Assembly: GCA_041917695.1 (NCBI GenBank)
Contig: JAYRXE010000033.1
Location: 38,490 to 102,489, forward strand
Source of the DNA: Minisyncoccota bacterium
GTDB taxonomy: Bacteria; Patescibacteriota; Minisyncoccia; UBA6257; GWB1-50-10
Length of the DNA stretch: 64,000 nt
Direction of reading: 5' to 3'
Below, one piece after another: positions 13,338 to 35,400 of this stretch. Each line of letters starts with the position of its first letter. Position 1 is the stretch's first letter. The notes under the pieces are model-generated. The model made no database searches. It worked only from the letters and a program-made list of their open reading frames with translations, and was not told where the DNA came from. The position numbers were made by a program, and so were the translations under genes.

Positions 13338-13366
13338 ACTGCGTCAAGACAAAGAGATGCTTTAAA

Positions 13367-15271: not shown

Positions 15272-15363
15272 AAATTCCGGCCTGATTTTACATAAAAAGA
15301 ATTATCGGACAACGATCCATTCTCGCCCTAATTCTTTTTGAGTTTCCTATTTCTTAAAAAAAA

Positions 15364-15813: not shown

Positions 15814-16017
15814 AACCCCACAAAGGAATTAAGTGAAATCCTCTTTCTCTAAGGATTTTCTCAAACCCTCAGAATGCTTCCTAAGACAACCAAGATCGAA
15901 TTCAGATTCTCTCCACGCAGGTAGCCGACGAGCATTTCGAGCAGGTCGAATGCAACACCAAAATGAAACCCTCGACCAAAGGCAGGCCGCATCCCCTCTT
16001 CTCGAAGGGCATTTCGT

Positions 16018-17931
16018 TCATTCACGGTCCACAAGAAAATTTCTTTCTAGCATGAAGCGATACATCTCTTCGGCATCGGCAAATTCGCACCAAACCGGTT
16101 TCCCGACGAATTCGATGGCGCAAAAAAGGCCAGTCTTCAGATTCAGCACGAACAGTTCCTCTCCATTCTGACCAAAGTAAATAAAGTCCCGTGAAAAATA
16201 CTCATTCAAATTTTGGTTCGCCTGTTGGATGGTTTCCTCAAAATCCGGTTCGGGTTTAATTGGCCAGATGGTCATCCCATCGAAATAAAAACCGTTCGTC
16301 TTCCTCAGAATTCGTTTGTAGGCATCCGGGAAGGGCTGGCCGAAGGCTTTGCTGAACCTGGTCTCAGCCAAAAGGATCTCTTCCTCGGTGCAGGGGCTGG
16401 GCTGGGCTTTCTCCCCCCATTCCGCCAGTTTCAGTTTCATAGCTTCAATTAACTCTTCAATCGACATAGCATCCGGAACACCCTCATCTGAAATGGGTTC
16501 AGCGGGATTCGCTACTACCTCGATGTTCAGGTGATACGCCTCGGCCACCGACTCAAGCAGCGCCCTTTCCTGTTCACTCACGCCCTTCTTGAACTCGGCC
16601 ATGATTTCCTCCTTGAGGGTTTCGAGGCTGCCGCGCTCGCGGCCCCGGAAATCGACCGTAACCGGCTTTCCTTCAAGGCGTGCGCGGACAAAGTCCTCGC
16701 CGGCACGCTTCGCCTGGGGACAATCGAAGCCGTTCCGGTAAATAACCCGCAATGCCAATTCCCTGAAGCGTTCGTTCGGCATGCGTTGGGCAATTGACCA
16801 CCGGATTTCGCCGGCAAGCGCATTATGAAAACTCCTGACGTCGTCCTGAGCGGCGTTCAGGTCGGAGAAGAAATCGCCTGAGTTATCGCCCGAGTACAGG
16901 CTCGAATCAAGATCGAGGTGATCGAGGGCTGGAAACTCACCGTTCAATCCTTCCATGAATAGCTTGATCCCCTTCTCGGCAATCAACTTGAGGTTCTGGC
17001 GAACGATACCTTTCCTCTCTTCAGGGAATTGGGCTTTCTCGGCTTTCAGGACGAACGGTGGTTCTCCTGGCCGCCGACTGACGAAAATGGGCCGATTCAG
17101 ATTCTCTCCACGCAGGTAGCCAGTCAGGTCCCGCTCAAGGAGTAACCACAACTGCCTTCCGGTCGATTCCGTTCGCGCGAGGACCGCCGGCTGCTGGTAC
17201 TTGTCGTCGTGCGCTCGATGCGAAATCAGGACGGCGAATTTCACTTCCGACGAGCCGGCTCGAACCGGCGTCAGTTCGTCGAGGGCGCCGACATCTTCCC
17301 TTTTTACGAACCGCTTCAGCGCGGCCTCAATCAATTTCGGGCTCGCGTCCCGCATTCGTTTGAAGAGTTCGATTGTCATTCGGACGTCGGCGCCGGCATC
17401 GTGTGCCTGCGAATCGTCGATCCCGTTCTCGACCGCCATCGCCCCCAACTTGAAGGTGGGCGTCCCGTCTTCCCGTGTCGGAAACTTCAGGGCCTTTGGC
17501 GCGAAGATTTTGAAAAGGGGGAGCATCGGAAGCACGTCCGCTCGACCGCACCCGTTGGCCCACTGGTGGGAGTACGGGTCGAGCAGGTTACGGTAAAACA
17601 GAAACCGCGACACCTGGTCATCGAATTGAAAAGAGTTGTAGCCAATGCTGATCGTATACGGTCGGTTGAATTCCTGGTGGATGCGGCAGGCAGCTTCGTA
17701 CTCGGTGATGCCGGTTCCAAGAACCTCTGGCGTCAGCCCCGTGACCTTCAGCGAAACGAGCGACGGAACGACATCGGGGCGTAACCTGATTCGAAACGAA
17801 TCCGCTCCGGTTTCCTCACCCGCCGCGCCAAGACGCACGGAAGCGAACTGGACCGGTTGATCGAAGACAACGTTCAGTCCGGTTGTTTCGTAGTCGTAGA
17901 AAAGGAACTGCTTCGAGGCTTGCGTCATCAT
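16018..17931 (-). CDS. sbcB: Exonuclease I (SbcB-like DEDDh 3'-5' ssDNA exonuclease) with a C-terminal SUKH/SMI1-KNR4-like domain
   Basis: FLFYDYETTGLNVVFDQPVQFASVR matches ExoI FLFHDYETFG..LDRPAQFAAIR. GYNSFQFDDQVSRFLFYRNLLDPY and SQAHDAGADV match the Exo II and III motifs. The ~150-aa tail FPDAYKRILRKTNGFYF...IYFGQNGEELFVL fits the SUKH pattern. Confidence 0.8.
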   Translation of the reverse strand: MMTQASKQFLFYDYETTGLNVVFDQPVQFASVRLGAAGEETGADSFRIRLRPDVVPSLVSLKVTGLTPEVLGTGITEYEAACRIHQEFNRPYTISIGYNSFQFDDQVSRFLFYRNLLDPYSHQWANGCGRADVLPMLPLFKIFAPKALKFPTREDGTPTFKLGAMAVENGIDDSQAHDAGADVRMTIELFKRMRDASPKLIEAALKRFVKREDVGALDELTPVRAGSSEVKFAVLISHRAHDDKYQQPAVLARTESTGRQLWLLLERDLTGYLRGENLNRPIFVSRRPGEPPFVLKAEKAQFPEERKGIVRQNLKLIAEKGIKLFMEGLNGEFPALDHLDLDSSLYSGDNSGDFFSDLNAAQDDVRSFHNALAGEIRWSIAQRMPNERFRELALRVIYRNGFDCPQAKRAGEDFVRARLEGKPVTVDFRGRERGSLETLKEEIMAEFKKGVSEQERALLESVAEAYHLNIEVVANPAEPISDEGVPDAMSIEELIEAMKLKLAEWGEKAQPSPCTEEEILLAETRFSKAFGQPFPDAYKRILRKTNGFYFDGMTIWPIKPEPDFEETIQQANQNLNEYFSRDFIYFGQNGEELFVLNLKTGLFCAIEFVGKPVWCEFADAEEMYRFMLERNFLVDRE

Positions 17932-18392
17932 TCGCTCCTTGATTGTTCAAACCAAACAGTCAGGCGGCGGCGGCCCTTCGGTTGCCGGGTCGTGTCTACA
18001 GGGTCTCGTCCAGTTCTCGCCCCGGCTGTCCCGGTAACTGATGACACCTGTGCCCATGCAAAACGGGCACTTCTCCGGCGAGTAGATTTGGGGCTGGACG
18101 ACCTCGAAAGCCCCGTCCTGGTCGCCTTCCGCGAGATCGTCCTGTTCAAAGAATGCCGTCTGCGTGTCGAGACGAAGCCGAGTTGTGATGTCGTCTCGAA
18201 CTTAGTGTCGCACTGTTCCATTGCTAAGAGGACGCCAAGTTGGGCTAAATCCGCGCCAGTTGTAGCGAGTCCCGTTTATTTTGAGAAATGACAAGCTTGG
18301 CCGGGCGGCGACTCGGTCGGGCGCGAAGGCAGGGAAGCAACGTGAAACAGGGGGGAGCGAAGGCCCCCTCCCCTTGGGTCGTCGGGATCAGA

Positions 18393-18980
18393 TCAGTTCA
18401 CCGCGAGAACCGGGACCTGGAACACATGCGAAGCGGCTTTCGCCATTGCGCTCGTCGAATACGCACCGTATGCCCGGTCGATGCTCTGGTTGTACTGGTG
18501 TGCAACCGTGTGCTGGTCCGCGCCGCTCGATCCCGCGAGCTGCGCGTCGATCACACGGCGGAATTCCGCGTTGGCCTTTTCCGGCAACGGCGTCACCCGG
18601 CGGGCGAGAATCGTCCCCGATGGAGACGCGACCAGGAACACATTCAGGATTTCGCGCTCCCCCGCCTTTCCCCGGTGGTCATATCTTTCTCGGAATTTCT
18701 CGTGATCGGGTCGAAACCGTTCAAGCGCCATCGAGAACGGTGCGTCCAGCCACGGCTGGTTTCCTGCCTTGAAGAGAAAAAACAAAACGCCGGAATACGA
18801 AAACAGGGCGACTTTGAACGATCCAAACTGGTACGCGACAAGTTCTTCGCGAGTTGGTTCCTTCAGAGCGACCAGGAGCCTCGGGCCGGGCAGGTCGAGA
18901 CTCGCGCGGACTTGCTCGCCGACAATCGAGCCCTCCGGAATGAGTTTGTCACCAATTTTGAAAATTTTTTCTTCACCCAT
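18393..18980 (-). CDS. Hypothetical protein
   Basis: 195-aa ORF with coherent GC and codon use. No motif. Confidence 0.35.
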   Translation of the reverse strand: MGEEKIFKIGDKLIPEGSIVGEQVRASLDLPGPRLLVALKEPTREELVAYQFGSFKVALFSYSGVLFFLFKAGNQPWLDAPFSMALERFRPDHEKFRERYDHRGKAGEREILNVFLVASPSGTILARRVTPLPEKANAEFRRVIDAQLAGSSGADQHTVAHQYNQSIDRAYGAYSTSAMAKAASHVFQVPVLAVN

Positions 18981-19167
18981 CGTCGGTGCTTTCTGTCATT
19001 ACAACCATAAAGTGGCAGTAAGTTTTCTACCAATTCAGCAAATGGCTGTAAAATTTTCTCATTTGTGCCAGTTTATGCCTGTTTTTTCTGCCATTTTATG
19101 GTGGTAATGACACTTTCTCATTTGAAGTATCCCGGCGGGACCATGATCCCGCCGGGCCGAACAGTGA

Positions 19168-23505: not shown

Positions 23506-24399
23506 TTAGTCGGATACCTTCTTCCGCCGAATCCGTTTCCGGGTCGAGCTGCTTTCGCGAGGCTCGATCCCGAAATTCGGGTTATCCCGATATCCGTCGG
23601 TCATGGATTGAAACCAACCGAGAAAATCGTCGAAATCCTCCCCGTCCGTAACGTCCAGAGGCATCACCTGAAGGTGACCGTGCCGCGCGAAATAAATGCC
23701 TGCATGGGTGATTTGCGGCTTGTCCATTTGAATGGAGCGGAGCAATGAGTAGCCTACGAGTTGTATCCAGTAATCGGTTTTGAATTGGAACTCCTTGGTG
23801 GTTTTGAAGTCCACCAGGAGATTTTTGTTGTTGGCAAAGCCGACGATGAGATCGGCATCTGCCCCTTTGACGAGTCTCGAAGCCTTTCCGAATTGAGGGT
23901 TCAGTTCAAGTCTCACGGCGCCTCTGAACATTCTCGGGTCGAAAACTCTCCCAATGGCCGACACGTCCTCAATCACCTTCTCTGAAACGTAGGGGACGCC
24001 TCCCAGTCCCTCTCCGACCCGATAAATCGGGTCAATTCGGGCCAGGTGACACATCGACTTGACGAATTCAGGCGACAGGCGTCCATCCAGAAGAAACTGG
24101 CGGTGTGCGTTTCGTCCCCGGTCGAGATACCCAAGCAGCATGTTTTGAAAGAGGGGCGGGGCTTTGGCGATGGCCAATTCCGCAATCCAGGTGTTGCGAT
24201 GAATTTCACAGATATTCGAGTACACCCGTTCGAGGATCGCCCGGAGAACGTAATCCGCTGCCGTTCCCGTCAATCCGTACTCGGTTGTAAGACTCGGTGC
24301 CGCCAACTGTTTCTCCTCCATCGTGGTGGAGGGAAGGGGATACCGCTCGATGAGAGATTTGGCGATGGCCGGGATTTTCAGGAAGAGAGTGAGTGACAT
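23506..24399 (-). CDS. Hypothetical protein with a PD-(D/E)xK nuclease-like motif
   Basis: GADADLIVGFANNKNLLVDFKTTK fits D-x(n)-(D/E)xK. Confidence 0.3.
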   Translation of the reverse strand: MSLTLFLKIPAIAKSLIERYPLPSTTMEEKQLAAPSLTTEYGLTGTAADYVLRAILERVYSNICEIHRNTWIAELAIAKAPPLFQNMLLGYLDRGRNAHRQFLLDGRLSPEFVKSMCHLARIDPIYRVGEGLGGVPYVSEKVIEDVSAIGRVFDPRMFRGAVRLELNPQFGKASRLVKGADADLIVGFANNKNLLVDFKTTKEFQFKTDYWIQLVGYSLLRSIQMDKPQITHAGIYFARHGHLQVMPLDVTDGEDFDDFLGWFQSMTDGYRDNPNFGIEPRESSSTRKRIRRKKVSD

Positions 24400-24934
24400 C
24401 GGAGTGCCTGGAAAGACTGCAAAACTTCAGAACCCTTTAATTGGGGTTTTAACCGTCTTTAACCCCTGAAATCGTCCCGATGACCGGATTCTTTGAAAAC
24501 TTCGCCCCAAAACCATTTCAACTGGGTCCCCGCTACCTTTAGGTGACGGTTCATGGTCTGAAAAAAAAGCCGGCCACCCACTCCGTTGGCTGTTTTTCAA
24601 TTTGAAGAATCAGATTCAACGTTCTACGGGGTATTTGATTTTCGCGGATGGTTGCTTTCGACCGAGGTGGGTGATCGTGACTTTGCCAGAATATTGAATC
24701 CGTCCTTCGATAAAATTTCCGGCGTCAATTTTCAGTGGACGTTCAGCTTGGAAAATTTCAATCGCCCTAAAAATTAGAGAAAAATTTCACCCGGTTCCGA
24801 CCGAGTTTTCCACAGACCGGTATAACAAAACTTTCCCCTATACAGTTCATGTAACCATGAGTAGTAAATAGGTTAAGAGGATAGGGGACTGGATTTTTAC
24901 CTTAAAAGGTTTTTTGTCAGTAGTTTACAGGTGC

Positions 24935-25415
24935 GGGTCCGTAACCGTGCGCCCTAGTCGGGTCGTTTTTCGACGGGTCCGTAACCGTGCGCCCTAGTGT
25001 TTTTCCACAGTTTTTTTGGGTCCGTAACCGTGCGCCCCGTAGTCCGTAACCGTGCGCCCCGTAGTCCGTAACCGTGCGCCCTATAGTGTAAATATTTTTC
25101 GAGTCCGATATTTTGAAAAAACCTGTGGATCCTTGCCGGATTTCTCCAGCCTGATCCGGGTCCGTAACCGTGCGCCCTAGTATTTTGGCTGGGTCCGTAA
25201 CCGTGCGCCCCAGTATTTTTCCACAGGTAGAGTGGGTCCGTAACCGTGCGCCCCAGTATTTTTCCACAGCCATTTCGGCCCTTTTCAAGGGAGTTTCAGG
25301 TTTAAGGTGTGATAGGTCCGTAACCGTGCGCCCTAGTTCTTTGAGGTGGTTTTCACGGGGTCATTTTCTGACGCTTGTGTTTATTTACGGTTAGGTCCGT
25401 AACCGTGCGCCCTAG
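24935..25415. repeat. Iteron array: ten direct copies of a 22-23-bp repeat with an internal AT-rich unwinding stretch (candidate oriV)
   Basis: (G/A)GGTCCGTAACCGTGCGCCC(T/C)(A)G repeated 10 times with spacers of 2-90 bp. AT-rich block GTGTAAATATTTTTCGAGTCCGATATTTTGAAAAAA at ~25085-25125. The last copy overlaps the stop of the Rep-like gene. Confidence 0.8.
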
Positions 25416-26506
25416 TCCTTAGCTTCACTAACTTCCGGTACTTTCGTTTGCTTGGCATGACTCTGCACGGCGTCGCGAACCAAGGTCATTGAGGGATGAA
25501 GCTCAAAAATCACGTTTTCCAGTTTTTGAGCCGTTCCTTTTTTCTTCTCCCATTTTCGCAACGTTTTGAAAGAGAGGAGGATTCTGGCATCAACCAACTC
25601 TTGGAGGCTTTTCTCGACTTTGGGTATATATGTCCGGAACGGACTGTTTGTGTCGAGGCCGAAATCCTCGATGATACGCAGGATCGAGATCCTGTAAGGT
25701 TCTTTTAAATTTGCTTGTAAGTACATATGAGCCAGTCGTTTATACATCGCTCGCGCAATTGCCGTTTTGAGATTTAAGGTTTTTTCGTAGTCGAGAAGTC
25801 GTAGGGAACCAAGTTGAATTGCTTTGGTGATCAGGTCGTTGAAACGCACCAGGACTGCGGTCGAATTTTCGTCAGTCTCGTTCTCATGGATTTCAATACG
25901 CTCGATATATCCCTGTTCCACGATTTGTTTTGAATCGAGGGTCTCGATGTGAAGTTTTGACCTGCTCAGAATGAAAAGCGCTTCCCGGATCTGGCTGTAT
26001 TTGTATGTGTGTCCTTGATTTGCGAGGACTTGCTGTAGTTGATACAGGTTGAAAATAACCCCGGACTGGTCCGGCAACAGGATGCCTTTCCCCTCCGTTG
26101 CCAACTTTCTCAAGCCAAGTTCGACGAATTCTTCGCGCTCACTCGGGTAGTAATGTCGAAACTTTCCGCCGCCCTCTACGACATAAGCCGGGTGTATCTG
26201 AAGCACCAATTCTTGATCTCGAAACCGAAATCGCCTTTCCAGTGGAAGCAGATAGGTATCGAGTTGTCGCTTAACGTTTCCGAAGACCCATCGGGGGGAT
26301 TGATCAAGCATTTCAATCGAGGCGGTATACCGATGACGGTCACGCTCACCGGCCATTTCTGTCAGCAGGGGATCGAAAAGGCGCAGTTGTCCTTTTTCGG
26401 CGGCTTCTTTCAGTTCTTTATCGCGTTTTGACATGGAGGTCCCGTCCGTCTCTTCCGCACTGCGAAGAACTTGGAGTTTGGGATTCAGCAGGGGTTTCGT
26501 TTTCAT
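25412..26506 (-). CDS. repA: Plasmid-type replication initiator (RepA-like) candidate
   Basis: 364-aa basic protein immediately adjacent to the iteron array. No enzymatic motif. Assignment is mainly by context. Confidence 0.5.
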   Translation of the reverse strand: MKTKPLLNPKLQVLRSAEETDGTSMSKRDKELKEAAEKGQLRLFDPLLTEMAGERDRHRYTASIEMLDQSPRWVFGNVKRQLDTYLLPLERRFRFRDQELVLQIHPAYVVEGGGKFRHYYPSEREEFVELGLRKLATEGKGILLPDQSGVIFNLYQLQQVLANQGHTYKYSQIREALFILSRSKLHIETLDSKQIVEQGYIERIEIHENETDENSTAVLVRFNDLITKAIQLGSLRLLDYEKTLNLKTAIARAMYKRLAHMYLQANLKEPYRISILRIIEDFGLDTNSPFRTYIPKVEKSLQELVDARILLSFKTLRKWEKKKGTAQKLENVIFELHPSMTLVRDAVQSHAKQTKVPEVSEAKD

Positions 26507-26628
26507 GGTGACGGCTTCTCGGCTTTATAACGCAGGACTTGATTTATCCGGCTGTTTTTTTCTTAAACTCAATGCACAAAATAATGTGCAGTCGGCTCTA
26601 TTCGCAAAACCGATTTCCTACAATCGGG

Positions 26629-26891
26629 ACATGCGAAACAAGACACTCGCAAGAACGCTCGGTCGCCTGATTCGAGAGCTTCGGACGGATGCCGGCTACT
26701 CAAGCCAGGAGTCCTTTGCCATCGAGATCGGCATTCATCGCAACGAAGTCAGTCTCATCGAACGTGGCCAAACCGCTGTTTCATTCGAGATACTCGTGAA
26801 AATTTGCGAGATCGCCCACGTCTCGATTTCCGATTTCTGCCGGAAACTCGAAGATAACTTGCCACCCTCTCGGCGGCTTCGACTTCGGTAG
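26629..26891 (+). CDS. XRE/Cro-type helix-turn-helix transcriptional regulator
   Basis: LIRELRTDAGYSSQESFAIEIGIHRNEVSLIERGQTAVSFEILVKICE is a typical HTH_3. Confidence 0.7.
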
Positions 26892-26937
26892 TTCGGCAAA
26901 GTTCAGGGTCACGGTCATTGCCGAATGCTTCTGGGCC

Positions 26938-27120
26938 TCACCGATGAAGCGTCAATTTTCCGATAATCGCGCGGGACAGTTTGTCGTCGATGTAGCCGGA
27001 AAGGGAGTCGAAGGTTTGTTGCCCGATGGGGATCTCCGAGTAGTAAAACAAGGCCATCACGGGAACGAAGTAAATGACGAACAGAAGAAACAGGGTCAGG
27101 ACGATACGTGAACGTTGCAT
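26938..27120 (-). CDS. Small membrane protein expressed from a consensus sigma-54 promoter
   Basis: 60 aa with one TM helix VLTLFLLFVIYFVPVMALFYY. GAGGAG RBS. A perfect -24/-12 element lies 35 bp upstream. Confidence 0.35.
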   Translation of the reverse strand: MQRSRIVLTLFLLFVIYFVPVMALFYYSEIPIGQQTFDSLSGYIDDKLSRAIIGKLTLHR

Positions 27121-27157
27121 TTGGCGTGCTCCTCAAAAAAAGGTATGCACTCCTTAT

Positions 27158-27173
27158 TGCAACCCTCGTGCCA
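27158..27173 (-). promoter_or_regulatory. Sigma-54 (-24/-12) promoter, perfect consensus
   Basis: Minus strand TGGCACGAGGGTTGCA equals TGGCACG-N4-TTGCA. Two repeat-family sites lie 50-110 bp upstream. Confidence 0.6.
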
Positions 27174-27224
27174 TAATCCGCTAAAAATCAAACTGTTGAA
27201 AATAAATGGTTTATTCGTTTTCTA

Positions 27225-27272
27225 TTACTGTCAAAAAGGACAGTAATTCAATAACTGACAAAAAGGTCACTT
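27225..27272. promoter_or_regulatory. Two copies of the AACTGNC-N6-GNCA(C/G) repeat family, a candidate enhancer site for the sigma-54 activator and/or terminator hairpins
   Basis: ACTGTCaaaaagGACAGT (6-bp stem) and AACTGACaaaaagGTCAC. The second overlaps the TGA stop of the 27267 gene. Confidence 0.5.
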
Positions 27273-28478
27273 ATTCTTCAGAACGATTTCTATGAAATCT
27301 TCAAGCGGCTCGCCACTGAAAGCCTCCCATACAAGTACCCGCCGATTGGAATAGACCTGACGTAACCGTCGAATCACGTTTTGCTTTACTTCCCGAATCT
27401 CCGGCTCCGGGGACGAGTCGACACCAATCAGGGTGTTCATGGAAGGGATTGCAAAATCTGGCCGAAGGCCCCACCGGTCATCAAAGAGGCATTTTACGAA
27501 GCCGATGCCTGTTTCGCGAAGTTTCAGGGCCAGAGATCGTTCCCCGGTATTTTCTATCGGCATTGGCCAATCGTTTGCGACGATCATCTGAAGAGCGCAT
27601 TTCTTCCAGATTGGCAGTGCGAATTGCTGGTCGTCGAAATCGTTGCGCGCGCCAACGCCGAACAAGAGCCAGGGGCCCACGGTTCCGATGCGTCCGATGC
27701 TGGTCGGCTCAAATGTCGCGCGGTAGGGTTTGTACCTGGGGTTTAGTTCCACAGTCGGGGAAGGGAAGAAGTACGCTGTTCCTTCCGCGGGGCTGTTCAT
27801 CATCTCGGCAAACAACCAGCATTCCGGGGGTAAGTCGATTCTGGTCCACGTCTTCAACCGGTCGTTCAATCCTCGCATTCCGCCCGAGTACAGCTTGAGC
27901 GGAACCCATGAAAAATCGGCCATCGACTGAGATGTTCTGGGGATCCGAATTTTTCTGAGAATTTCCTGAAAGGGATTCCAGAATTCCGAATGGGCCTGCT
28001 TTCCGGTCGGGGTGATCGTTGGTTCAAACGTTCCCCACCCTGCTTCAACGGCCATTCGGTGAAGGGTCGAGAACATCAATTTATTCTTGATGGAATCAAC
28101 CGCGGTCCGTCCTTCGCCGTCACCATCTCCGGTTGCCTCCGGTTTCACCCGGAGAAGGAGTCCGTAGGGGGCTGGCTGGTATGGGTTTTTCCCTCCGCGA
28201 TATTTCCCCGGCTGAATTTCAAAGGTGCAGATCTCGCATTGAATTTCGTCGTCGAAGTCCTGTTTCGGATTTCGCCTCAAAAAGTGAAGATTCTTGCGTT
28301 CGACGACATGAAGGATGCGTCCGCATCGGCAAGAAATCAGTTGTCCGGCCAAGCGGATCTCACCCATCCACTCCTGGGAAATAGGCCAATCCGGATGTTT
28401 CTCGACGAACGCTATTTCTTCCTCGGAGAGAGGACGAATCGCGGCGCTATCCTCGGAACGAAGGAAAGGATCGGGCAT
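27267..28478 (-). CDS. Hypothetical protein with a Cys cluster; last gene of the transfer cluster
   Basis: 403 aa. CRCGRILHV...CEICTF suggests a zinc ribbon. No other motif. Confidence 0.4.
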   Translation of the reverse strand: MPDPFLRSEDSAAIRPLSEEEIAFVEKHPDWPISQEWMGEIRLAGQLISCRCGRILHVVERKNLHFLRRNPKQDFDDEIQCEICTFEIQPGKYRGGKNPYQPAPYGLLLRVKPEATGDGDGEGRTAVDSIKNKLMFSTLHRMAVEAGWGTFEPTITPTGKQAHSEFWNPFQEILRKIRIPRTSQSMADFSWVPLKLYSGGMRGLNDRLKTWTRIDLPPECWLFAEMMNSPAEGTAYFFPSPTVELNPRYKPYRATFEPTSIGRIGTVGPWLLFGVGARNDFDDQQFALPIWKKCALQMIVANDWPMPIENTGERSLALKLRETGIGFVKCLFDDRWGLRPDFAIPSMNTLIGVDSSPEPEIREVKQNVIRRLRQVYSNRRVLVWEAFSGEPLEDFIEIVLKNK

Positions 28479-28481
28479 GGC

Positions 28482-30254
28482 TTATTCGGGAGTTCGACCG
28501 AGTTTTTCTTCGATCTTTCCCCGTTCTTCGGTCGATGACCGGAAATTGCTGACCAGATCACCAAACGAAGAAATCACCGCCTGATGGTATTCCAATTCAT
28601 CAGTTCCCAGTCGGGTCCCGTCTGAAAGGGTTGCCTTGGCGATACGGTGCATCTTTACGACCATCGCCATAAAAGCTGTTTTGTGTTCAGCGAATTCAAT
28701 TGCGTCCTCAGCCGTGATCTCTTCGTCGAGAACCAGCGCGACCAGACTGTCTTCCAGAGTAGTGCAGAATTTTTGAGAATTTGTGTAGCCAATCGTGTCG
28801 TAAAACCTATCCTTATCGAAAGGCTGTTCAGAACTTCCGATAATCGCGGCTCTAAGTTGGTTTCGGTTGGAGATACGGCAAACTTCCATGACCAGTTTCC
28901 GCCCGCCCCCCTTGCCGTTGTTTTTTGAAAAATCGCTGGAGAGGGCCGCTTTCGGCATTCTTCGAGGAGAGATCAGTCGCTGTGCGACAATTGCCTGAAG
29001 GGCCTGGGCGACCTTTGCTCTATTTCCCACCATCTCGATCAGTTTCTGAATGGCGTCGTATGCGGTTGTCGCCGCGTGCATCGTTCCAAGCACAAGATGC
29101 CCGGTCAATGCCAGGTGGACGGCAACCTCGGCGGTGCTCACATCCCTGATCTCGCCAATTGCAACCACATCCGGATCCTGTCGAAGGGCGTTTCTTCCCG
29201 CTTCCGCATAGCTGCGCGCGCACGTACCAATTTCTATTTGCTGAATGGTGGCTTTCTTATGGGAATAAATGATCTCGACGGGGTCTTCAATCGTGACAAT
29301 GTTGACCGGACGCCGTTCGTTCAATTGTTCAATGGTCGCGGCCATTGAGTTTGTCTTCCCGCTCCCGGTTGGCCCGACATACAATACAAGGCCCTGATGG
29401 ATCGCCTGCTGGCAGATGTCTTCCACCAGGCGTTCCCCGACATCGTTGAATCCCAGGCTCCGGACCGACGGTGGCGCCGCCGGAATCTTTCGAATACTTG
29501 CTGCCAGCCCGCGTGCGTTGGGTTCATCCGTAACCACTAAATGGACATTGATTCTTAAACGAGCAAGGAGTTCATTCGACTCTTTTGAGTACACCGAATA
29601 AACGGGATTTACCCCGTCTTCGGGTAAGTGTTTTTCAAAGTTGGGAATTCTGAGACCCTCTTTTTCAAGGTATAAATTTTCAAGATGCTTGAAATAGGTC
29701 GTATTCCTTGTGACTTCACGCAGGAATTCAAGGATTTCCGCTTCGGGCATGACACTGCCTTCTTGAACGGACTCCATTTGTCCTTTCTCGTTGCGGATTT
29801 TGACCTGCCGGTTTGGGAGAATCTGGATGTCGGAGGCTCCGTTATAAACCATCAATTCGATTGTCTCGAACAATCTCCCCGCGGTGAATACATTCGATCT
29901 CTTCGCCGGGGTCCATTCCGAAATCCCTTTTTGGACAAGGCTGATTTCACGTTTGAGCGTCTCAAGAAATGCTTCGTAGGAGTCTCGGGAGTAGCGTGAA
30001 TGAACCGATTCGGGTGGTATGTAGGGCATTTCGAGTAACGCCGTGCTGCCTCGTCCTGCTCGTTTCAATACCTGGTCCAATGGTTCCTTGCTTTTTTCGG
30101 TGTAGGGCGCGACAAAGATATTGACTGATCCTTCACTTCGAATCAGGTGGCCCCCGAGTTCGACCAGGAAGCCGTCAAGATTTTCAGTCTTTGATGCCAA
30201 GATGACGACCTGTGAAGGGCGAAGAAATTGGTTAATTTCCATTTCAATCCTCAT
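28482..30254 (-). CDS. PilT/PilU-like GspE-family secretion ATPase with a ~250-aa N-terminal extension
   Basis: Walker A VGPTGSGKTN. Asp box VTIEDPVEI. Walker B VAIGEIRD. His box TGHLVLGTMHA. No C-terminal tetra-Cys. Confidence 0.8.
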   Translation of the reverse strand: MRIEMEINQFLRPSQVVILASKTENLDGFLVELGGHLIRSEGSVNIFVAPYTEKSKEPLDQVLKRAGRGSTALLEMPYIPPESVHSRYSRDSYEAFLETLKREISLVQKGISEWTPAKRSNVFTAGRLFETIELMVYNGASDIQILPNRQVKIRNEKGQMESVQEGSVMPEAEILEFLREVTRNTTYFKHLENLYLEKEGLRIPNFEKHLPEDGVNPVYSVYSKESNELLARLRINVHLVVTDEPNARGLAASIRKIPAAPPSVRSLGFNDVGERLVEDICQQAIHQGLVLYVGPTGSGKTNSMAATIEQLNERRPVNIVTIEDPVEIIYSHKKATIQQIEIGTCARSYAEAGRNALRQDPDVVAIGEIRDVSTAEVAVHLALTGHLVLGTMHAATTAYDAIQKLIEMVGNRAKVAQALQAIVAQRLISPRRMPKAALSSDFSKNNGKGGGRKLVMEVCRISNRNQLRAAIIGSSEQPFDKDRFYDTIGYTNSQKFCTTLEDSLVALVLDEEITAEDAIEFAEHKTAFMAMVVKMHRIAKATLSDGTRLGTDELEYHQAVISSFGDLVSNFRSSTEERGKIEEKLGRTPE

Positions 30255-30271
30255 TTTTAGGGGGGTGCTAA

Positions 30272-31666
30272 CTACCTGATTTGGTCGTATTCAAGACACA
30301 ATTCGGTGAAAACCGCGTCTCCACTATTAAAATCCAAATCCTTGATTTCTGATTCGAGGAGATGTTGCACGTCCTCGACCGAGACGTTTCCAGCCGCCTC
30401 ACTGTCTGAAAAGAATACACTCCAGAAGATGACGCCGTTTTCGAAGGCAATGCTGCTGTCTGCAATCATGAGCCTCTTGCCGAGCGCTTCGAAAATCCGG
30501 TTGTAACCCTTCTGCAACCGGTCGGCACCGTAAATTCGGATAATCCGTTCCGCGTCATTGGGGTTTGGGCTAATTCTTACAATCATCCCCTTTGCAAAAG
30601 TCTTCAGTTCCTCAAGCGTCGAAAACTCTGGTTTGCCCTTGATTTCATTCATGGATGATCGGCGGTTACGAAAAGCCCCGAAATGTGCTTCGTGGGGCAC
30701 GTTTTCCGGTATTTCCTGAATGCTTTCGTTTTCGGAAAACATTGTATTCACCCTTTCCTGGTGGACTGGCCGAAGGTCCACGTCAGGTTCAACGTTCGGA
30801 ACGATTTCTTCAAAAGAAGCGATTTCAGGTGTTGTCTGGGCAAAGTCCAAGCCTCCGTTGAAGGCAACTCCCACGGGTACTTGTGGCTCCAGTGGATCTC
30901 CGAGGTTTGGGTCAACGGCAAATATCGGTTCTACCTGAAAACGTTCTTGATCGGGTTTTTCGGAAAATTCCATTGGAACAACGAGGTCCGATTGGGCTGG
31001 TTCAAATCCGGGGGCTTGAAATTCACTGGTGCGCCGTTGGGATCTCCGTTCGGCATCCATTCTTAGCCGATTATATTTGAACACCAATGCAAGTGATTTG
31101 TCCTGAAGGGTCTGAATTTCCGATTCTCGGCCCAGGTAGAGCCTAACCACCGATTGCAACGAATCGGCAAGGCTGTTTCTACTGACAGTTGCGGGAAGCC
31201 CCTTCACGACCCCAAGCGCGAGTTTGTCTTTTCGTTCCGCCCGCAAAAGCAGGAGGGCAGTCGTACCGGTGCAGGCTAAAAAAAATAACCCAAGCCAAAA
31301 AAATCTCGATTTTTCTCTGGCTCTTTCATCCGTTCGCCAAATCAGGCCAAGGGTTCCAAGGAATTTTCTTTGGGCAGTGGCAGGTAAGTTTACAGTTGCG
31401 GATCCTTTTTCCAGGTTTGAGTCGATGATCTTTATGAATTCCCCGTCAGCGTCGATCACCTGAAGGTATGCCGAATCGGAAAGTGCGTCTTTTGCTGAGT
31501 TTTCGAACATTTTCCGGTTCGTCTGAAAGTCTTTGATGGTCGATGAAGCCAGCATTGCCTCGGCATCCGAGAAAAGGTTTCTGCCCGTATCGGATTCCCC
31601 GGCAAGAAGGCTCCACCCAATCACGGCCATCATGAGAACAAGAATCGCCAATCCAGTAACTCTCAT
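30272..31666 (-). CDS. Membrane protein with two TM segments; hypothetical
   Basis: TM helices LAILVLMMAVIGWSLL and FFWLGLFFLACTGTTALLLL. Unknown C-terminal domain. Confidence 0.35.
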   Translation of the reverse strand: MRVTGLAILVLMMAVIGWSLLAGESDTGRNLFSDAEAMLASSTIKDFQTNRKMFENSAKDALSDSAYLQVIDADGEFIKIIDSNLEKGSATVNLPATAQRKFLGTLGLIWRTDERAREKSRFFWLGLFFLACTGTTALLLLRAERKDKLALGVVKGLPATVSRNSLADSLQSVVRLYLGRESEIQTLQDKSLALVFKYNRLRMDAERRSQRRTSEFQAPGFEPAQSDLVVPMEFSEKPDQERFQVEPIFAVDPNLGDPLEPQVPVGVAFNGGLDFAQTTPEIASFEEIVPNVEPDVDLRPVHQERVNTMFSENESIQEIPENVPHEAHFGAFRNRRSSMNEIKGKPEFSTLEELKTFAKGMIVRISPNPNDAERIIRIYGADRLQKGYNRIFEALGKRLMIADSSIAFENGVIFWSVFFSDSEAAGNVSVEDVQHLLESEIKDLDFNSGDAVFTELCLEYDQIR

Positions 31667-32937
31667 TTTGTTCCTCCCGCAAGCGTTCCCACGAGTTGGA
31701 GCAGCGGCATGTACATCCCGATCACGATGTAGCCAACAATGATGCCCAGGACAATTTTCATAACGGGTTCGATGAGCTTGACCAGACGTTCCAGGGACTC
31801 GTCGACCAAGCCTTCGAGTTCGCGTTGAAGGTTATCGAGGTCGCCGGTGGAGCCGGTTGATTCGTATTGCTTCAATGAAGCGTAGAGCGGGGTCGTCCTT
31901 CCAAAAGCAGGGTGGTAATCTGCGAGCTTATCAGCAAGGTTTTTCCCATCAATGATGAAGTCGTCCGCTGCCTTCAATGCGGCTGATCGCAGTTCGAGAT
32001 TTCCGATTGAAGCGGCCGCATAGGTGACCGCTTCTTTGATTTCTCCGGTCGCTGAGACCAGTCCACTCAAAACGCCAACGTATTGAAAACCCGCAATGCG
32101 AACGACGATCCGATTGATGACCGGGATTCGAAGCGACCAATAACTTTCCCACTGCTTCACCCTGAAATCCTTTCGTTTCCAATAGGAATAGCCATAGGGG
32201 ATGGCAACACTGAGAATTATCAAAAGCCACCAGTAAGCATCTATAAATTCTCCTAACCATATCAGGGAAGTTGTCACCGGGTTAATTTTGTCGCCCAGTT
32301 GCGCAAACATGTTCTTGAGTACCGGGATAACGAATTTCAACATGATCCCCAAGACAACTCCGGCAACGACGAGAGTCAGAACGGGCAAGATCAATTCGCT
32401 CTTGATGGTCGCCCAGACCTTCGACATTTTCTCAAGAAACCTTACATGCCGTTCAAGCAAACCGGGAACGTACATCCCGTCAACTGCTTGCCCGGAGTAG
32501 TTCCCGGTTTTTTCCGCGGCGGCTATCATCATGAGGGTCGATCCGTCAAAGACGCCCGGAAACTCATAACAGGCTTCGGCGAAGGTAATTCCTTGCTCCG
32601 ACAAATTGTAAAGTTCGGCAAAGAGCAATCCCGCTTTCGGCGGATTGTCCATTAAATAGGCCATTAAATGATTTTTTCCTTCATTGTAGGTCGCACTCAG
32701 GCGATACCGGCGTGACAGGTAATTTTGGACTGTGATTCCGGCTTTCGTCGAATTGACCAGTTCATTCAGAAAACGAATCCGTTCCCGTTCAGACATTCTG
32801 AAATTTTTACGATCATCTTGTCGTTCGGGATCGTCGTGTCGAAGGCGCTCGACTTTGGCGTAATCGACTCTTTTCTGCTTTTCAAACATTATTTTTATCC
32901 TTCCCTCGGAACGTCGATGATTGGCCCGTTTTCCCAT
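31663..32937 (-). CDS. GspF/PilC-type inner-membrane platform protein
   Basis: Two T2SS-F repeats and TM helices LILPVLTLVVAGVVLGIMLKF, WWLLIILSVAIPY and IVLGIIVGYIVIGMYMPLL. The true start is probably MFEKQK at ~32889. Confidence 0.75.
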   Translation of the reverse strand: MGKRANHRRSEGRIKIMFEKQKRVDYAKVERLRHDDPERQDDRKNFRMSERERIRFLNELVNSTKAGITVQNYLSRRYRLSATYNEGKNHLMAYLMDNPPKAGLLFAELYNLSEQGITFAEACYEFPGVFDGSTLMMIAAAEKTGNYSGQAVDGMYVPGLLERHVRFLEKMSKVWATIKSELILPVLTLVVAGVVLGIMLKFVIPVLKNMFAQLGDKINPVTTSLIWLGEFIDAYWWLLIILSVAIPYGYSYWKRKDFRVKQWESYWSLRIPVINRIVVRIAGFQYVGVLSGLVSATGEIKEAVTYAAASIGNLELRSAALKAADDFIIDGKNLADKLADYHPAFGRTTPLYASLKQYESTGSTGDLDNLQRELEGLVDESLERLVKLIEPVMKIVLGIIVGYIVIGMYMPLLQLVGTLAGGTK

Positions 32938-35348
32938 TCCGAGCGCCCGGATGTACGTCTACCTGACGCTCCGTATTCGCCCCTTCGCGGTGTTCTCAGG
33001 GGGCCGGTTTCATCCGTATTGGTTTCGGTCTGGTGAAATTTTTCATCCAGGTCCGGAGATGCTTCTTCGTCAGGGAACTGGTCCTCCAGAACCAACGCCC
33101 CCAAAGCATCGAAATACTCCTCGATGCCGATGACCCCGCGAATCAGCCGATCAATGCCGGCCCGGTGTAGGGTGCAGTGACCGTTTTTCAGGGCCGCTTC
33201 CCGTAAAACAACCGCTGAAGCATGGTTGTCGATCAGTCGCTTTTCGGATTTTGTCGGCTTCCAGATTTCCGGAATGGCGGTTCTTCCGCCGATACCAGGC
33301 TCTTTTCCTTTCCCGACGCAATCGGGACAATTTTCTCCCGACTCTGTTTTTCCTTTGGCCATCAAAGGCACGAAAAAAGGCAGAACCTGTTTCTCAAGAC
33401 ACTCTTCCCGCCATCTTTCAAGGTCGAGCGTTTCTTTACCGAGCTGCACTTTGCTCAAATGAATGGCGAGGGCGATATTTCCATCGGCCTCTTTGTCCCA
33501 ACCTTGACGGTGACTATCTTTTTGCTTATCCGAAAGCTTTTCCCACCTGTCCTCTCCGATCTTCAGACAGGCAATCTCAAATGCCTCTTCCCAAGTTGTG
33601 GGAATCTTCAATTTCTTCAGCATCTCCAGCAAATGCTGCATGTTGACGGTATATTTCGCATTTGCACCAAGGCGATCTTTCCAGTCAAAGTCGTGTGTAC
33701 TGCACGTCGGGCAAAGTTTGTTCGCGAGGGATTGATAGATGATTGCGAGGATGCATGAAGAAAGAGCCGAGGGAACAATCTCGTAGGGCTCTTCGGTGAT
33801 TCGTTGGACGGCGGTAAATGGGTCCGTCGAATGGAATGTCGTCACCACGAAGACCCCACCCATTCCGCTTGTAATGGCCATTTCTCCCATTTCTTTCGTA
33901 TTAATTTCTCCCATAAACAATCCATTGATCCCTTGACGGACAACGGTTTTCAACTTGCTCATGGGGTTTTCTTGTTCGGCCAACTCGCACTGCGAAATAT
34001 AGGGATTGTGATACTCGACGGGTTGCTCAATGGAGATAATGTCCTTGCCCGGATTCAGGATTGACTGTTCAGTGAGGAGGGCGCTTGCCGTGCCCGATTT
34101 ACCGGACCCCATTTCGCCAACCAATATGACCACGCCATGCCGGTGATTGTTTACCTCCAGCATCACCGCATACTCCCGGTCGTTATAGCCGAGTTCGTTC
34201 AATCGAAGCAGATTGCTGGCCCCGGACAAAATTCGGAACGACACCCGTCCGTTGCATTCGGCATTCCGGTGCAACGTATTCGTGAGCGGGATGTACGACA
34301 CGCGAGTCGCGAGTTCCACGGTCCTTCTCGATTTCGGGAGAACCACCTTCTTGAACGTCAAAGGGCCATTGTGCTCTTTATGGATCAATGGCTCACCGCT
34401 GGTCGTGGTGACAATCCAGACCATGATCCGTTTGTACGCTTCATTGAGCATCCTCAAGCGCTGAACGTCTCGATATTCCCCGTTGACCCGTGCCCGGACC
34501 AACATTTCCCCGGTATCGAAATCGTATCTTATGAGCACATCCGAGAATTTTTCCTCGGCAAGTTTCCCGATGATTTCGGAAAGCAGTTGCTCTGGTTCGC
34601 CGATGGTCCTTTGTATGACGCCTTCTTTAACGGCCGTACCCGCGTTTATCCTCTCGGCAATATCGTCGATTTTCTTTTGACTCGCTTTTTGGTCGACCTC
34701 ATAGATCTCGCCGATGTACTTGTGAACCGTACCTGGGTCAACAAACTTAATGCTTGGCGAAAGTTGGTTCCACAGCCGGGATTCTCCGAAAGCTGACTCG
34801 GAAATTCTTTCCCGGAAGCTCTGCGAATCGAACATTCTCGTAAGGGTTTCGCGGCCAGGCCCGTCTTCGGCAATGCAACTGACTTCGGTGCCCCGAATGG
34901 ACGTCACCAACACCCGGAACTGGGTTGCCACTTCAATATCCACGCAGCGGGCAATTTTCACGGTGATCGGAATCCGTTCGACGTTTTGTTTGCTTTGGTA
35001 GAGACGAATCAGGGCTGCTTGGACCTGTTCGGGGTTGAACACCTCGACTACCACCGAGATCTGTTCTGGCCGGGGATTCCCAAGTTTGTCCCGGAAAGCG
35101 GAGTCCTCCGCATACTCGCGAATTCGGGTTTCGACCGCCGTTCGATAGCGTTCGTCGGTCGCAACCGTCAACCGGCGCAGTCGAGCATCATACGAAATCA
35201 CTACAATGGAGAACTCCTTGGCCACCGTTTCCGGAATGATCGACTGGAGATTTGGATTTGGATGGAGGGGGCGAATGTTCAAATTGATGTTGCCGGGCTT
35301 CATCAATCCCTTCGCCGCGGTAAATCCCCGAGATAAAAATGACGACAT
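32895..35348 (-). CDS. GspE/PilB-type secretion/extension ATPase with N-terminal GspE_N domains and a C-terminal tetra-Cys zinc site
   Basis: Walker A LVGEMGSGKSGT. GspE_N-like IPETVAKEFSIVVISYDARLRRLTVATDE. CPTCS...CPDC tetra-Cys. 817 aa. Confidence 0.8.
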   Translation of the reverse strand: MSSFLSRGFTAAKGLMKPGNINLNIRPLHPNPNLQSIIPETVAKEFSIVVISYDARLRRLTVATDERYRTAVETRIREYAEDSAFRDKLGNPRPEQISVVVEVFNPEQVQAALIRLYQSKQNVERIPITVKIARCVDIEVATQFRVLVTSIRGTEVSCIAEDGPGRETLTRMFDSQSFRERISESAFGESRLWNQLSPSIKFVDPGTVHKYIGEIYEVDQKASQKKIDDIAERINAGTAVKEGVIQRTIGEPEQLLSEIIGKLAEEKFSDVLIRYDFDTGEMLVRARVNGEYRDVQRLRMLNEAYKRIMVWIVTTTSGEPLIHKEHNGPLTFKKVVLPKSRRTVELATRVSYIPLTNTLHRNAECNGRVSFRILSGASNLLRLNELGYNDREYAVMLEVNNHRHGVVILVGEMGSGKSGTASALLTEQSILNPGKDIISIEQPVEYHNPYISQCELAEQENPMSKLKTVVRQGINGLFMGEINTKEMGEMAITSGMGGVFVVTTFHSTDPFTAVQRITEEPYEIVPSALSSCILAIIYQSLANKLCPTCSTHDFDWKDRLGANAKYTVNMQHLLEMLKKLKIPTTWEEAFEIACLKIGEDRWEKLSDKQKDSHRQGWDKEADGNIALAIHLSKVQLGKETLDLERWREECLEKQVLPFFVPLMAKGKTESGENCPDCVGKGKEPGIGGRTAIPEIWKPTKSEKRLIDNHASAVVLREAALKNGHCTLHRAGIDRLIRGVIGIEEYFDALGALVLEDQFPDEEASPDLDEKFHQTETNTDETGPLRTPRRGEYGASGRRTSGRSEWENGPIIDVPREG

Positions 35349-35400
35349 ACTGACTTCCGTTCCCCTTTGAAAGTTACGTTCTGAAAATTTGACCCTGGTT

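What the first reader, a model, noticed from the sequence alone, without database searches (positions are those of the whole stretch)
24935..26891. Plasmid-type replicon module: ten iterons, an AT-rich unwinding block, a Rep-like initiator and an XRE regulator
Ten direct copies of GGTCCGTAACCGTGCGCCCTAG with irregular spacing include a ~45-bp AT-rich stretch. They directly abut a 364-aa basic protein gene, and the last iteron overlaps its stop codon. A divergent XRE-family regulator follows. This is the architecture of an iteron-controlled oriV. Together with the transfer cluster and the integrase, it suggests the window is from a plasmid or an integrated plasmid/ICE hybrid.
Basis: partly seen in the sequence, partly recalled or inferred. 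Interest (0 to 1): 0.6.

Follow-up and report, generated by a model that had tools for sequence, protein, structure and literature searches.

The report
Iteron plasmid replication origin, RepA-type
This stretch is an ordinary iteron-controlled plasmid replication module: an initiator protein distantly related to RepA of IncA/C plasmids, ten binding repeats, host DnaA boxes and AT-rich unwinding DNA, sitting on an otherwise uncharacterised mobile element from an uncultured bacterium.

Summary
Ten copies of an exact 18-bp core (GTCCGTAACCGTGCGCCC) lie at 24937-25412, with none expected by chance. The last copy overlaps the stop codon of a 364-aa basic protein gene (25412-26506, minus strand). 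A divergent XRE-type HTH gene follows (26631-26891).

The protein matches no Pfam or NCBIfam model. It is nevertheless a clear distant homologue (26-31% identity over about 90% of its length, E down to 1e-35) of annotated plasmid replication proteins. These include RepA of IncC plasmids and the Rep proteins of pQBR103 and Acidithiobacillus plasmids. Its AlphaFold model (pLDDT 86) significantly matches only the R6K Pi-iteron complex and RctB domains 2-3.

All 14 relatives whose downstream DNA was scanned carry direct-repeat arrays just 3' of rep. Twelve have 7-13 copies with spacings that recur near 22, 32 and 43 bp. Four DnaA-box consensus sites (TTTTCCACA) sit in or beside the array, three of them fused to an iteron. 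The 56%-identical sister element keeps the same layout.

The "transfer cluster" is really a type IV pilus/T2SS-like set plus weak VirB4- and relaxase-like proteins. The "integrase" is Xer-like. Whether the element is free or integrated is unresolved.

Verdict: a new member of a known kind, of modest interest.

The parts
24806..24814 (+). DnaA box TTTTCCACA at the distal end of the origin
   Evidence: Exact match to TTWTNCACA. Four of the five matches in the 64 kb fall within 24806-25268.
24816..24932 (.). Long AT-rich block (64% A+T), candidate DNA unwinding element at the rep-distal edge of the iteron array
   Evidence: Composition. The DUE assignment is an inference.
24936..25084 (+). Iterons 1-5 (24936-24957, 24976-24997, 25019-25040, 25041-25062, 25063-25084). 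Copies 3-5 are head-to-tail at 22 bp.
   Evidence: Exact 18-bp cores; repeat family D1.
25001..25009 (+). DnaA box TTTTCCACA, 3 bp after iteron 2 (composite iteron + DnaA-box unit)
   Evidence: families D2 and D3.
25085..25121 (.). Short AT-rich stretch (76% A+T) between the two iteron clusters, second candidate unwinding site
25124..25132 (-). Inverted, weaker DnaA-box-like site (GGATCCACA, 7 of 9 positions) bordering the AT-rich stretch
   Evidence: Inverted repeat I3 with the box at 25001-25017; sequence read. It does not meet the TTWTNCACA consensus.
25159..25256 (+). Iterons 6-8 (25159-25180, 25192-25213, 25235-25256). Iterons 7 and 8 are each followed by AGTATTTTTCCACAG.
   Evidence: D2.
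25217..25225 (+). DnaA box TTTTCCACA fused to iteron 7
25260..25268 (+). DnaA box TTTTCCACA fused to iteron 8
25315..25336 (+). Iteron 9
25394..25415 (+). Iteron 10, overlapping the rep stop codon (25412-25414)
25412..26506 (-). rep: 364-aa initiator (pI 9.2), a distant member of the IncA/C RepA family with a double winged-helix fold
   Evidence: tblastn against plasmids. BLASTP against IncC RepA, E 5e-38. HMMER finds 1043 relatives. AF2 model pLDDT 86. Foldseek matches Pi and RctB.
26573..26590 (.). Perfect palindrome TGCACAaaataaTGTGCA in the rep-XRE intergenic spacer, candidate operator
   Evidence: Sequence read; flagged as a stem. The operator role is an inference.
26631..26891 (+). XRE/Cro-C1-type HTH gene (86 aa), divergent from rep. 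It is absent from the sister element.
   Evidence: HTH_3 E 3e-9, HTH_31 E 1e-8. Gene calls in L004 versus L001.

Best explanation
This is a theta-type, iteron-controlled replication module (oriV plus rep) of the IncA/C RepA kind.

Proposed mechanism:
1. The 364-aa protein is a double winged-helix initiator. Its monomers bind the ten 22-bp iterons lying immediately 3' of its own gene.
2. Host DnaA binds the four TTTTCCACA boxes. Three of these are fused to an iteron, so Rep and DnaA would sit side by side.
3. Together they open one of the two AT-rich blocks (25085-25121, or 24816-24932) and load the host helicase.
4. The large number of iterons, split into two clusters plus two outliers reaching into the rep stop codon, would also set copy number and incompatibility by titration and handcuffing.
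5. The divergent XRE repressor probably controls the rep/xre promoters through the palindrome at 26573-26590.

What is shown: the repeats, the DnaA boxes, homology to plasmid Reps, the fold, and conservation of the architecture.
What is inferred: binding, the site of melting, handcuffing, and the XRE role.
For: Repeats:
- Ten exact 18-bp cores against 0.04 expected.

Homology of the protein:
- It hits 1302 plasmid records by tblastn. The best are 26-31% identical over 84-97% of the query, E 1e-21 to 4e-35. They are annotated 'replication protein' or 'RepB family plasmid replication initiator protein'.
- The hits include IncC plasmids (replicon typed IncC; BLASTP E 5e-38), pQBR103, Acidithiobacillus pACF1 next to parA, and Microbulbifer pTHAF38_a next to parAB.
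- An exhaustive HMMER search finds 1043 cluster representatives, 197 of them at E<=1e-30.

Fold:
- The AF2 model from 43 sequences has pLDDT 86 and pTM 0.85.
- The only significant PDB matches are RctB domains 2-3 (E 5e-8) and the R6K Pi-iteron complex 2nra (E 2.5e-6).

Conserved architecture:
- All 14 relatives whose downstream DNA was scanned have direct-repeat arrays directly 3' of rep, often overlapping its stop. Twelve have 7-13 copies with spacings recurring at 22-23, 31-33 and 42-43 bp. The Microbulbifer array is shorter and looser (3-5 copies). The IncP-2-type L009 shows only a loose 3-copy family.
- TTTTCCACA or TTATCCACA appears inside the repeat output of several of these relatives (L017, L019, L023).

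Sister element (56% identical Rep):
- It has the same order of parts: two plain iterons, then DnaA-box+iteron units 43 bp apart.
- Its iterons share the half GTTACGGACC with ours and differ in the other half. It has no XRE gene.

DnaA boxes:
- Four of the five TTWTNCACA matches in the 64 kb lie within 460 bp of the array.

Assembly behaviour:
- All five short-read contigs carrying either Rep end 14-211 bp past the gene. Where enough tail sequence remains (L001, L002, L004), the break lies inside the iteron array, as expected for a repeat array.

Literature:
- IncA and IncC replicons have repA, one DnaA box and 11-14 19-bp iterons (PMC7433901, citing Llanes 1996 and Harmer & Hall 2015).
Against: - The protein itself matches no curated Pfam, NCBIfam or PHROG replication model.
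- There is no sequence-level PDB match.
- No partition genes (ParA/ParB) were found among the window ORFs of 150 aa or more that were scanned, although relatives have them next to rep.
- No iteron-like inverted repeat lies in the rep promoter region, so the classical Rep autorepression operator is not evident.
- Helical phasing of the ten copies is only suggestive: coherence 0.69 at 10.7 bp, and 7% of random sets do as well.
- Circularity and autonomous replication are untested.
Confidence: 0.9

Rival explanations
1. The replicon belongs to an integrated mobile element (ICE or IME). It fires only after excision, as the SGI1 rep/oriV does, rather than maintaining a free plasmid.
For: - A tyrosine recombinase lies in the window (6990-7973).
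- No par genes were seen.
- SGI1 shows that iteron replicons do occur on integrated islands (PMC7433901).
- The NCBI contig is 120 kb and its topology is unknown.
Against: - The recombinase is Xer-like. It lies in a GC-deviant patch with a truncated Tn3 transposase and TniB, 17 kb from rep, so it looks like transposon or resolution cargo.
- The window has no tRNA gene.
- No housekeeping gene was seen among the ORFs scanned.
- The annotated relatives that were opened sit on circular plasmid records.
Confidence: 0.25
2. The repeats are operator sites of a transcription factor (the XRE protein, or the 364-aa protein acting as a regulator of the adjacent pilus cluster) and have no origin function.
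For: - rep lies at the 3' end of a long same-strand pilus-like gene cluster in both elements.
- The protein has no curated family assignment.
Against: - The sister element has the iterons but no XRE gene.
- The repeats lie 3' of rep, not at a promoter.
- DnaA boxes and AT-rich blocks are interleaved with them.
- The protein is homologous to the replication proteins of IncC and other plasmids and has the Pi/RctB fold.
Confidence: 0.03
3. It is the origin of a secondary chromosome or chromid, RctB-like, rather than of a plasmid.
For: The best structural match is RctB domains 2-3. Some relatives sit on replicons of 0.4-0.8 Mb.
Against: - The protein is 364 aa and lacks the extra RctB domains.
- All sequence-level relatives are plasmid Reps.
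- The surrounding genes are mobile-element cargo.
Confidence: 0.05

Closest known systems
IncA/C (IncC) plasmid replicon: RepA plus 11-14 19-bp iterons and a DnaA box downstream of repA
   Same: - The initiator is homologous (28% identity, E 5e-38).
- The iteron array lies 3' of rep, with irregular spacing that includes 22-23-bp tandem pairs.
- The origin is associated with DnaA boxes (PMC7433901).
- The iterons begin in a similar way (yaTRTGGG... against CTAGGG...).
   Different: - Identity is only 28%.
- The iteron here is 22 bp with a different sequence.
- There are four DnaA boxes, three fused to iterons, instead of one.
- A divergent XRE gene lies upstream of rep.
- No parAB, MOBH or MPF_F backbone is present.
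- The host is an uncultured lineage. The nearest GTDB relatives (32-39% identity) are mostly Acidobacteriota MAGs.
Rep/oriV of pQBR103, IncP-2-type Pseudomonas megaplasmids and Acidithiobacillus ferrooxidans plasmids (pACF1, pTF5 type)
   Same: - Same Rep family (26-30% identity over 88-97% of the query).
- Nine or ten iterons start at the rep stop codon.
- pQBR103 iterons share TAGGGCGCA with the ones here.
   Different: The iteron sequences and the backbones differ.
R6K Pi, F RepE and pPS10 RepA (Rep_3, WH1-WH2 iteron initiators) and Vibrio cholerae RctB domains 2-3
   Same: - Same double winged-helix fold by Foldseek (E 2.5e-6 to 5e-8).
- Same logic of iterons plus DnaA boxes plus an AT-rich DUE.
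   Different: - No significant sequence similarity. Rep3_N is not matched by this protein, and only 3 of 43 relatives match it, below threshold.
- In Rep_3 plasmids the iterons usually lie upstream of rep, with an inverted-repeat operator for autorepression. Here they lie downstream, and no such operator is seen.
SGI1 rep/oriV (RepA_C family)
   Same: Iterons, a DnaA box and AT-rich DNA lie immediately downstream of rep on a mobile element (PMC7433901).
   Different: It belongs to an unrelated Rep family (RepA_C PF04796, not matched) and has only four iterons.

Membership tests
IncA/C RepA-like plasmid initiator family (no Pfam model; PGAP names IncC RepA 'RepB family plasmid replication initiator protein') | Full-length sequence homology to IncC RepA and its plasmid relatives | tested here: met
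   BLASTP against IncC RepA: 28% identity over residues 18-304, E 5e-38. tblastn hits 1302 plasmid records. HMMER finds 1043 relatives.
IncA/C RepA-like plasmid initiator family (no Pfam model; PGAP names IncC RepA 'RepB family plasmid replication initiator protein') | Array of direct repeats (iterons) immediately downstream of rep | tested here: met
   Ten iterons at 24936-25415. Repeat arrays were found downstream of rep in all 14 relatives scanned, with 7-13 copies in 12 of them.
IncA/C RepA-like plasmid initiator family (no Pfam model; PGAP names IncC RepA 'RepB family plasmid replication initiator protein') | DnaA box(es) in the origin | tested here: met
   Four TTTTCCACA sites within 24806-25268, with only one other consensus match in the 64 kb.
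IncA/C RepA-like plasmid initiator family (no Pfam model; PGAP names IncC RepA 'RepB family plasmid replication initiator protein') | Rep-dependent autonomous replication of the rep-oriV fragment | not testable with these tools
   Needs a mini-replicon assay.
Rep_3 (PF01051 Rep3_N / RepE-Pi family) | HMM match above the Pfam gathering score | tested here: not met
   No hit at E<=1 for this protein. Three of 43 relatives hit at best E 7.7e-4, below the cut-off.
Rep_3 (PF01051 Rep3_N / RepE-Pi family) | Tandem winged-helix (WH1-WH2) fold | tested here: met
   Foldseek against 2nra_C (Pi-iteron complex), E 2.5e-6, and against RctB domains 2-3, E 5e-8. These are the only significant PDB matches. 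The model has pLDDT 86.
   The Pfam-A scan at E<=1 gives no family for this protein. RPA is weakly hit by 5 of 43 relatives (best E 1.3e-4). TrfA does not appear among the 25 families listed (a 26th was not shown).
XRE/Cro-C1 HTH regulators | HTH_3-type domain above the gathering score | tested here: met
   HTH_3 scores 37.1 bits against a cut-off of 23; HTH_31 scores 35.3 against 27.
   Only weak signals were found, all far below the curated cut-offs:
- MobL/MobP3-like stretch at the N-terminus of the 4243-aa ORF (E 4e-4 and 9e-5).
- TraC/VirB4-like ATPase in the 1040-aa ORF (E 4e-9).
The adjacent cluster is T4P/T2SS-like.

The most novel reading that the evidence does not exclude
The replicon could be the maintenance module of a so-far undescribed class of large mobile plasmid in uncultured soil or sediment bacteria, possibly Acidobacteriota.

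On this reading the conserved backbone has three parts:
- a type IV pilus/T2SS-like apparatus;
- a VirB4-like ATPase;
- a 4243-aa protein combining relaxase-like, primase-polymerase-associated, methylase and SNF2 helicase domains.

The initiator gene would be embedded as the last gene of that cluster, so replication and pilus/transfer expression would be transcriptionally coupled. The two sister replicons found in the same metagenome would have escaped mutual incompatibility by changing one half of the iteron.
Probability: 0.2. Interest if true: 0.55.

Novelty: new member of a known kind. Interest (0 to 1): 0.3.

Why it matters
The finding gives a well-defined oriV/rep pair for an uncultured lineage. 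Only two close sequences exist among 5.8 billion proteins.

It also exposes a gap in the databases. The whole IncA/C RepA-like family has about a thousand 50%-identity clusters and includes clinically important IncC and Pseudomonas megaplasmid replicons, yet no Pfam model covers it. HMM-based plasmid detection will therefore miss such replicons.

Two practical points follow:
- The module could seed a shuttle vector for its host group.
- The sister replicon offers a natural example of Rep and iteron specificity diverging together.

None of this changes the current understanding of iteron replication.

Tried and rejected
Searches that gave nothing for the Rep protein itself:
- Pfam, NCBIfam and PHROGs scans.
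- PDB sequence searches with a 2-sequence and a 43-sequence profile.

Structure:
- The first AF2 run, with only 2 sequences, was unusable (pLDDT 42). It was replaced by the 43-sequence run.

Collection scans:
- A word-indexed protein search with the 43-sequence profile returned only 3 proteins.
- Genome and metagenome scans with the 2-sequence alignment found no relatives.
- The 43-sequence alignment was too diverse to seed a scan. A 6-sequence alignment worked.
- An exact 18-mer iteron scan of JGI metagenomes gave 10 single hits, consistent with chance. None carried a second copy.

Local features:
- Rfam found no RNA (for example a copy-control antisense RNA) in 24000-27500.
- No iteron half-site lies in the rep promoter region.
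- The sigma-70 promoter scan gave nothing above the shuffle expectation.
- Two ORFs lie inside the repeat array (24917-25288 minus strand, 25170-25394 plus strand). I rejected them as artefacts of translating the iterons.

Backbone:
- tblastn of the neighbouring 403-aa protein against plasmids gave no match.
- The VirB4-like ORF gave only 5 weak matches.
- The backbone is therefore not that of any plasmid in PLSDB.
Full report
**1. Observation**

The repeats are real. The 18-bp core GTCCGTAACCGTGCGCCC occurs ten times, always exact and always on the + strand. The starts are 24937, 24977, 25020, 25042, 25064, 25160, 25193, 25236, 25316 and 25395, and the core occurs nowhere else in the 64 kb (0.04 expected). 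It has 1-3 end mismatches in four more, and the tenth copy (25041-25062) differs at four end positions.

Read in the orientation of the adjacent gene, the unit is CTAGGGCGCACGGTTACGGACC. Spacings are 40, 43, 22, 22, 96, 33, 43, 80 and 79 bp. Phase coherence peaks at a period of 10.7 bp (0.69 for all ten copies, 0.86 for the first eight). About 7% of random position sets do as well, so phasing is suggestive only.

The 96-bp gap holds a 37-bp stretch of 76% A+T (25085-25121), against 48.5% A+T for the window. A longer block of 64% A+T lies just outside the array at 24816-24932.

Iteron 10 (25394-25415) covers the TAG stop (25412-25414) of a 364-aa ORF on the minus strand (25412-26506, pI 9.2). 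An 86-aa XRE-type HTH gene (26631-26891, +) is divergent from it (HTH_3 E 3e-9).

**2.

The DnaA-box consensus TTWTNCACA occurs five times in the 64 kb. Four of these are TTTTCCACA, at 24806, 25001, 25217 and 25260, all within 460 bp and on one strand. Three sit 3 bp after an iteron, forming a repeated composite unit: iteron + AGTRTTTTTCCACAG (families D2 and D3). A weaker inverted site (GGATCCACA on the minus strand, 25124-25132) borders the short AT-rich stretch (I3). Iterons interleaved with DnaA boxes and AT-rich DNA are the signature of DnaA-dependent iteron origins (established knowledge; reviewed in PMC4980987).

**3. The protein**

No Pfam, NCBIfam or PHROG model matches it, even at E<=1. 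In the 90%-clustered collection of 5.8 billion proteins it has one close relative, P0002, at 56% identity.

More sensitive searches place it clearly:
- tblastn against 72,556 plasmids hits 1302 records. The best hits are 26-31% identical over 84-97% of the query, at E 1e-21 to 4e-35. They are annotated 'replication protein' or 'RepB family plasmid replication initiator protein'.
- About a thousand of the records are enterobacterial conjugative plasmids. The one I opened is typed IncC, and the hit is its RepA, placed at position 1 of the record. Pairwise BLASTP gives 28% identity and E 5e-38.
- Other relatives are the Rep proteins of pQBR103, a P. aeruginosa megaplasmid of about 400 kb, Acidithiobacillus ferrooxidans pACF1 (next to parA) and Microbulbifer pTHAF38_a (next to parAB and mobH).
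- Exhaustive HMMER against 1.84 billion cluster representatives gives 1043 relatives at E<=1e-3 and 197 at E<=1e-30.
- When 43 members are scanned one by one against Pfam, the commonest weak matches are RPA (5 members), Rep3_N (3) and RepC (2). All are replication initiators and all fall below threshold.

The family is therefore a branch of the winged-helix initiators that Pfam does not cover.

**4. Fold**

With 43 sequences AlphaFold2 gives pLDDT 86 and pTM 0.85. The run with 2 sequences was useless. Foldseek against the PDB yields four significant matches from three entries:
- RctB domains 2-3, the plasmid-initiator-like core of the Vibrio chromosome 2 initiator (5tbf and 5ubf, E about 5e-8).
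- The R6K Pi protein bound to iteron DNA (2nra_C, E 2.5e-6).

The next match has E 0.015.

**5. The architecture is conserved in the family**

I scanned the DNA 3' of rep in 14 relatives:
- Four plasmids: pACF1, pTHAF38_a, pQBR103 and IncC.
- The IncP-2-type locus L009.
- Nine of the ten GTDB loci, from Acidobacteriota, deltaproteobacterial/Syntrophobacteraceae and Micavibrio MAGs. These loci hit the query at 32-38% identity in the best segment.

All 14 have direct-repeat arrays beginning at or within a few hundred bp of the stop codon. Twelve have 7-13 copies of about 19-24 bp, with spacings recurring at 22-23, 31-33 and 42-43 bp. The pTHAF38_a array is shorter and looser (3-5 copies). L009 shows only a loose 3-copy family. 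TTTTCCACAGG or TTATCCACA turns up inside the repeat output of several (L017, L019, L023). The published description of IncA and IncC replicons is repA, one DnaA box and 11-14 19-bp iterons (PMC7433901, citing Llanes et al. 1996 and Harmer & Hall 2015).

**6. The sister element**

The gene for P0002 (56% identical) sits in the same gene order: a pilus-like cluster, a 402-aa protein, a small membrane protein, then rep.

Reading away from the stop codon, the downstream DNA has two plain repeats and then two DnaA-box+repeat units 43 bp apart. That is exactly the order in the window. Its repeat is CTATGGAGTTCTGAGTTACGGACC. This shares the GTTACGGACC half with ours and differs in the other half, as expected if protein and site changed specificity together. 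It has no XRE gene, so the repeats travel with rep and not with the XRE regulator.

All five short-read contigs carrying either Rep (L001-L004, L028) end 14-211 bp past the gene. Where enough tail remains (L001, L002, L004), the break falls inside the array, which is the behaviour expected of a repeat array. Both replicon types occur in sample SRR26835159.

**7. Mechanism (inferred from the families named)**

- Rep monomers bind the iterons and DnaA binds the adjacent boxes.
- Together they melt an AT-rich block and load the host helicase.
- Surplus iterons titrate Rep and pair origins (handcuffing) to limit copy number.
- I found no iteron-like inverted repeat in the 124-bp rep-xre spacer.
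- The spacer does hold a perfect palindrome, TGCACAaaataaTGTGCA (26573-26590). It is the likeliest operator for the XRE protein. If so, rep transcription here is set by XRE rather than by Rep autorepression. This step is speculative.
- Rfam finds no regulatory RNA in 24000-27500.

**8. Context**

The genes next to rep on the minus strand are a type IV pilus/T2SS-like set: two T2SSE ATPases, T2SSF, PilO and a secretin. It is not a classical conjugative transfer cluster.

Further along lie two larger ORFs:
- A 4243-aa ORF with a weak relaxase-like N-terminus, NrS-1 polymerase HBD domains, an Eco57I-type methylase and an SNF2 domain.
- A 1040-aa ORF with weak TraC/VirB4 similarity.

The left third of the window is patchy in GC (0.32-0.61). 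It carries a truncated Tn3 transposase, a Xer-like recombinase, TniB and an HsdM fragment. No tRNA gene and no par genes were found, and none of the ORFs scanned looked like a housekeeping gene. Neither the 403-aa neighbour nor the backbone resembles any PLSDB plasmid.

The window therefore looks like a mobile element with a plasmid-type replicon. Whether it is free or integrated cannot be settled here.

**9. Verdict**

This is a new, divergent member of a known kind of system, the IncA/C RepA-type iteron replicon. It is of modest interest, chiefly as a marker of an uncharacterised plasmid lineage and of a gap in HMM libraries.

Noticed in passing
window 41665-54396 (-): A single 4243-aa ORF. 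It combines a weak MobL/MobP3 relaxase-like N-terminus (aa 45-112), two NrS-1 polymerase HBD domains, an Eco57I-type methylase stretch and an SNF2 helicase domain. This is an unusually large multi-domain DNA-processing protein for a mobile element.
   Followed up: partly
window 28482-40520 (-): A type IV pilus/T2SS-like cluster (two T2SSE ATPases, T2SSF, PilO, secretin). It is syntenic with rep in both the window and the 56%-identical sister element. In the sister element rep follows the cluster on the same strand after a 19-bp gap, which suggests co-transcription.
   Followed up: partly
window 57548-60670 (-): A 1040-aa ORF with weak TraC/VirB4-type ATPase similarity (E 4e-9, far below the cut-off). 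Its best plasmid match is a Myxococcus 'TraC family protein' at 25% identity.
   Followed up: partly
L002 and L004 (sample SRR26835159): The two sister replicons occur in the same metagenome sample. Their iterons share one half (GTTACGGACC) and differ in the other. This could be a natural case of escape from incompatibility.
   Followed up: no
window 27220-27273: A tandem 27-bp repeat (78% identical copies). Each copy holds a palindrome of the type ACTGTCaaaaagGACAGT. It lies just upstream of the conserved 403-aa gene and may be an operator (family D4).
   Followed up: no
window 1-19000: A GC-patchy accessory region (0.32-0.61). It carries a truncated Tn3-family transposase (2019-4079, with DUF4158 and only the first 78 positions of the DDE domain), a Xer-like recombinase (6990-7973), TniB (14080-14859), an HsdM N-terminal fragment (12737-13900), a Metallophos-AAA protein of 1056 aa and an RNase T-SUKH fusion.
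   Followed up: partly
window 23506-24399 (-): A 297-aa ORF next to the origin with no Pfam hit. It matches phrog_34041 (E 3e-12) and gives weak Cas4/exonuclease-like PHROG matches, so it may be a PD-(D/E)XK nuclease.
   Followed up: no
L007 3681-4346 (pQBR103) compared with window 24936-25415: The iterons of pQBR103 (ATAGGGCGCAnCAAACCTACAAC) share the motif TAGGGCGCA with the iterons of the window, although the Rep proteins are only about 26% identical. Many family iterons begin with TA(T/G)GG.
   Followed up: no
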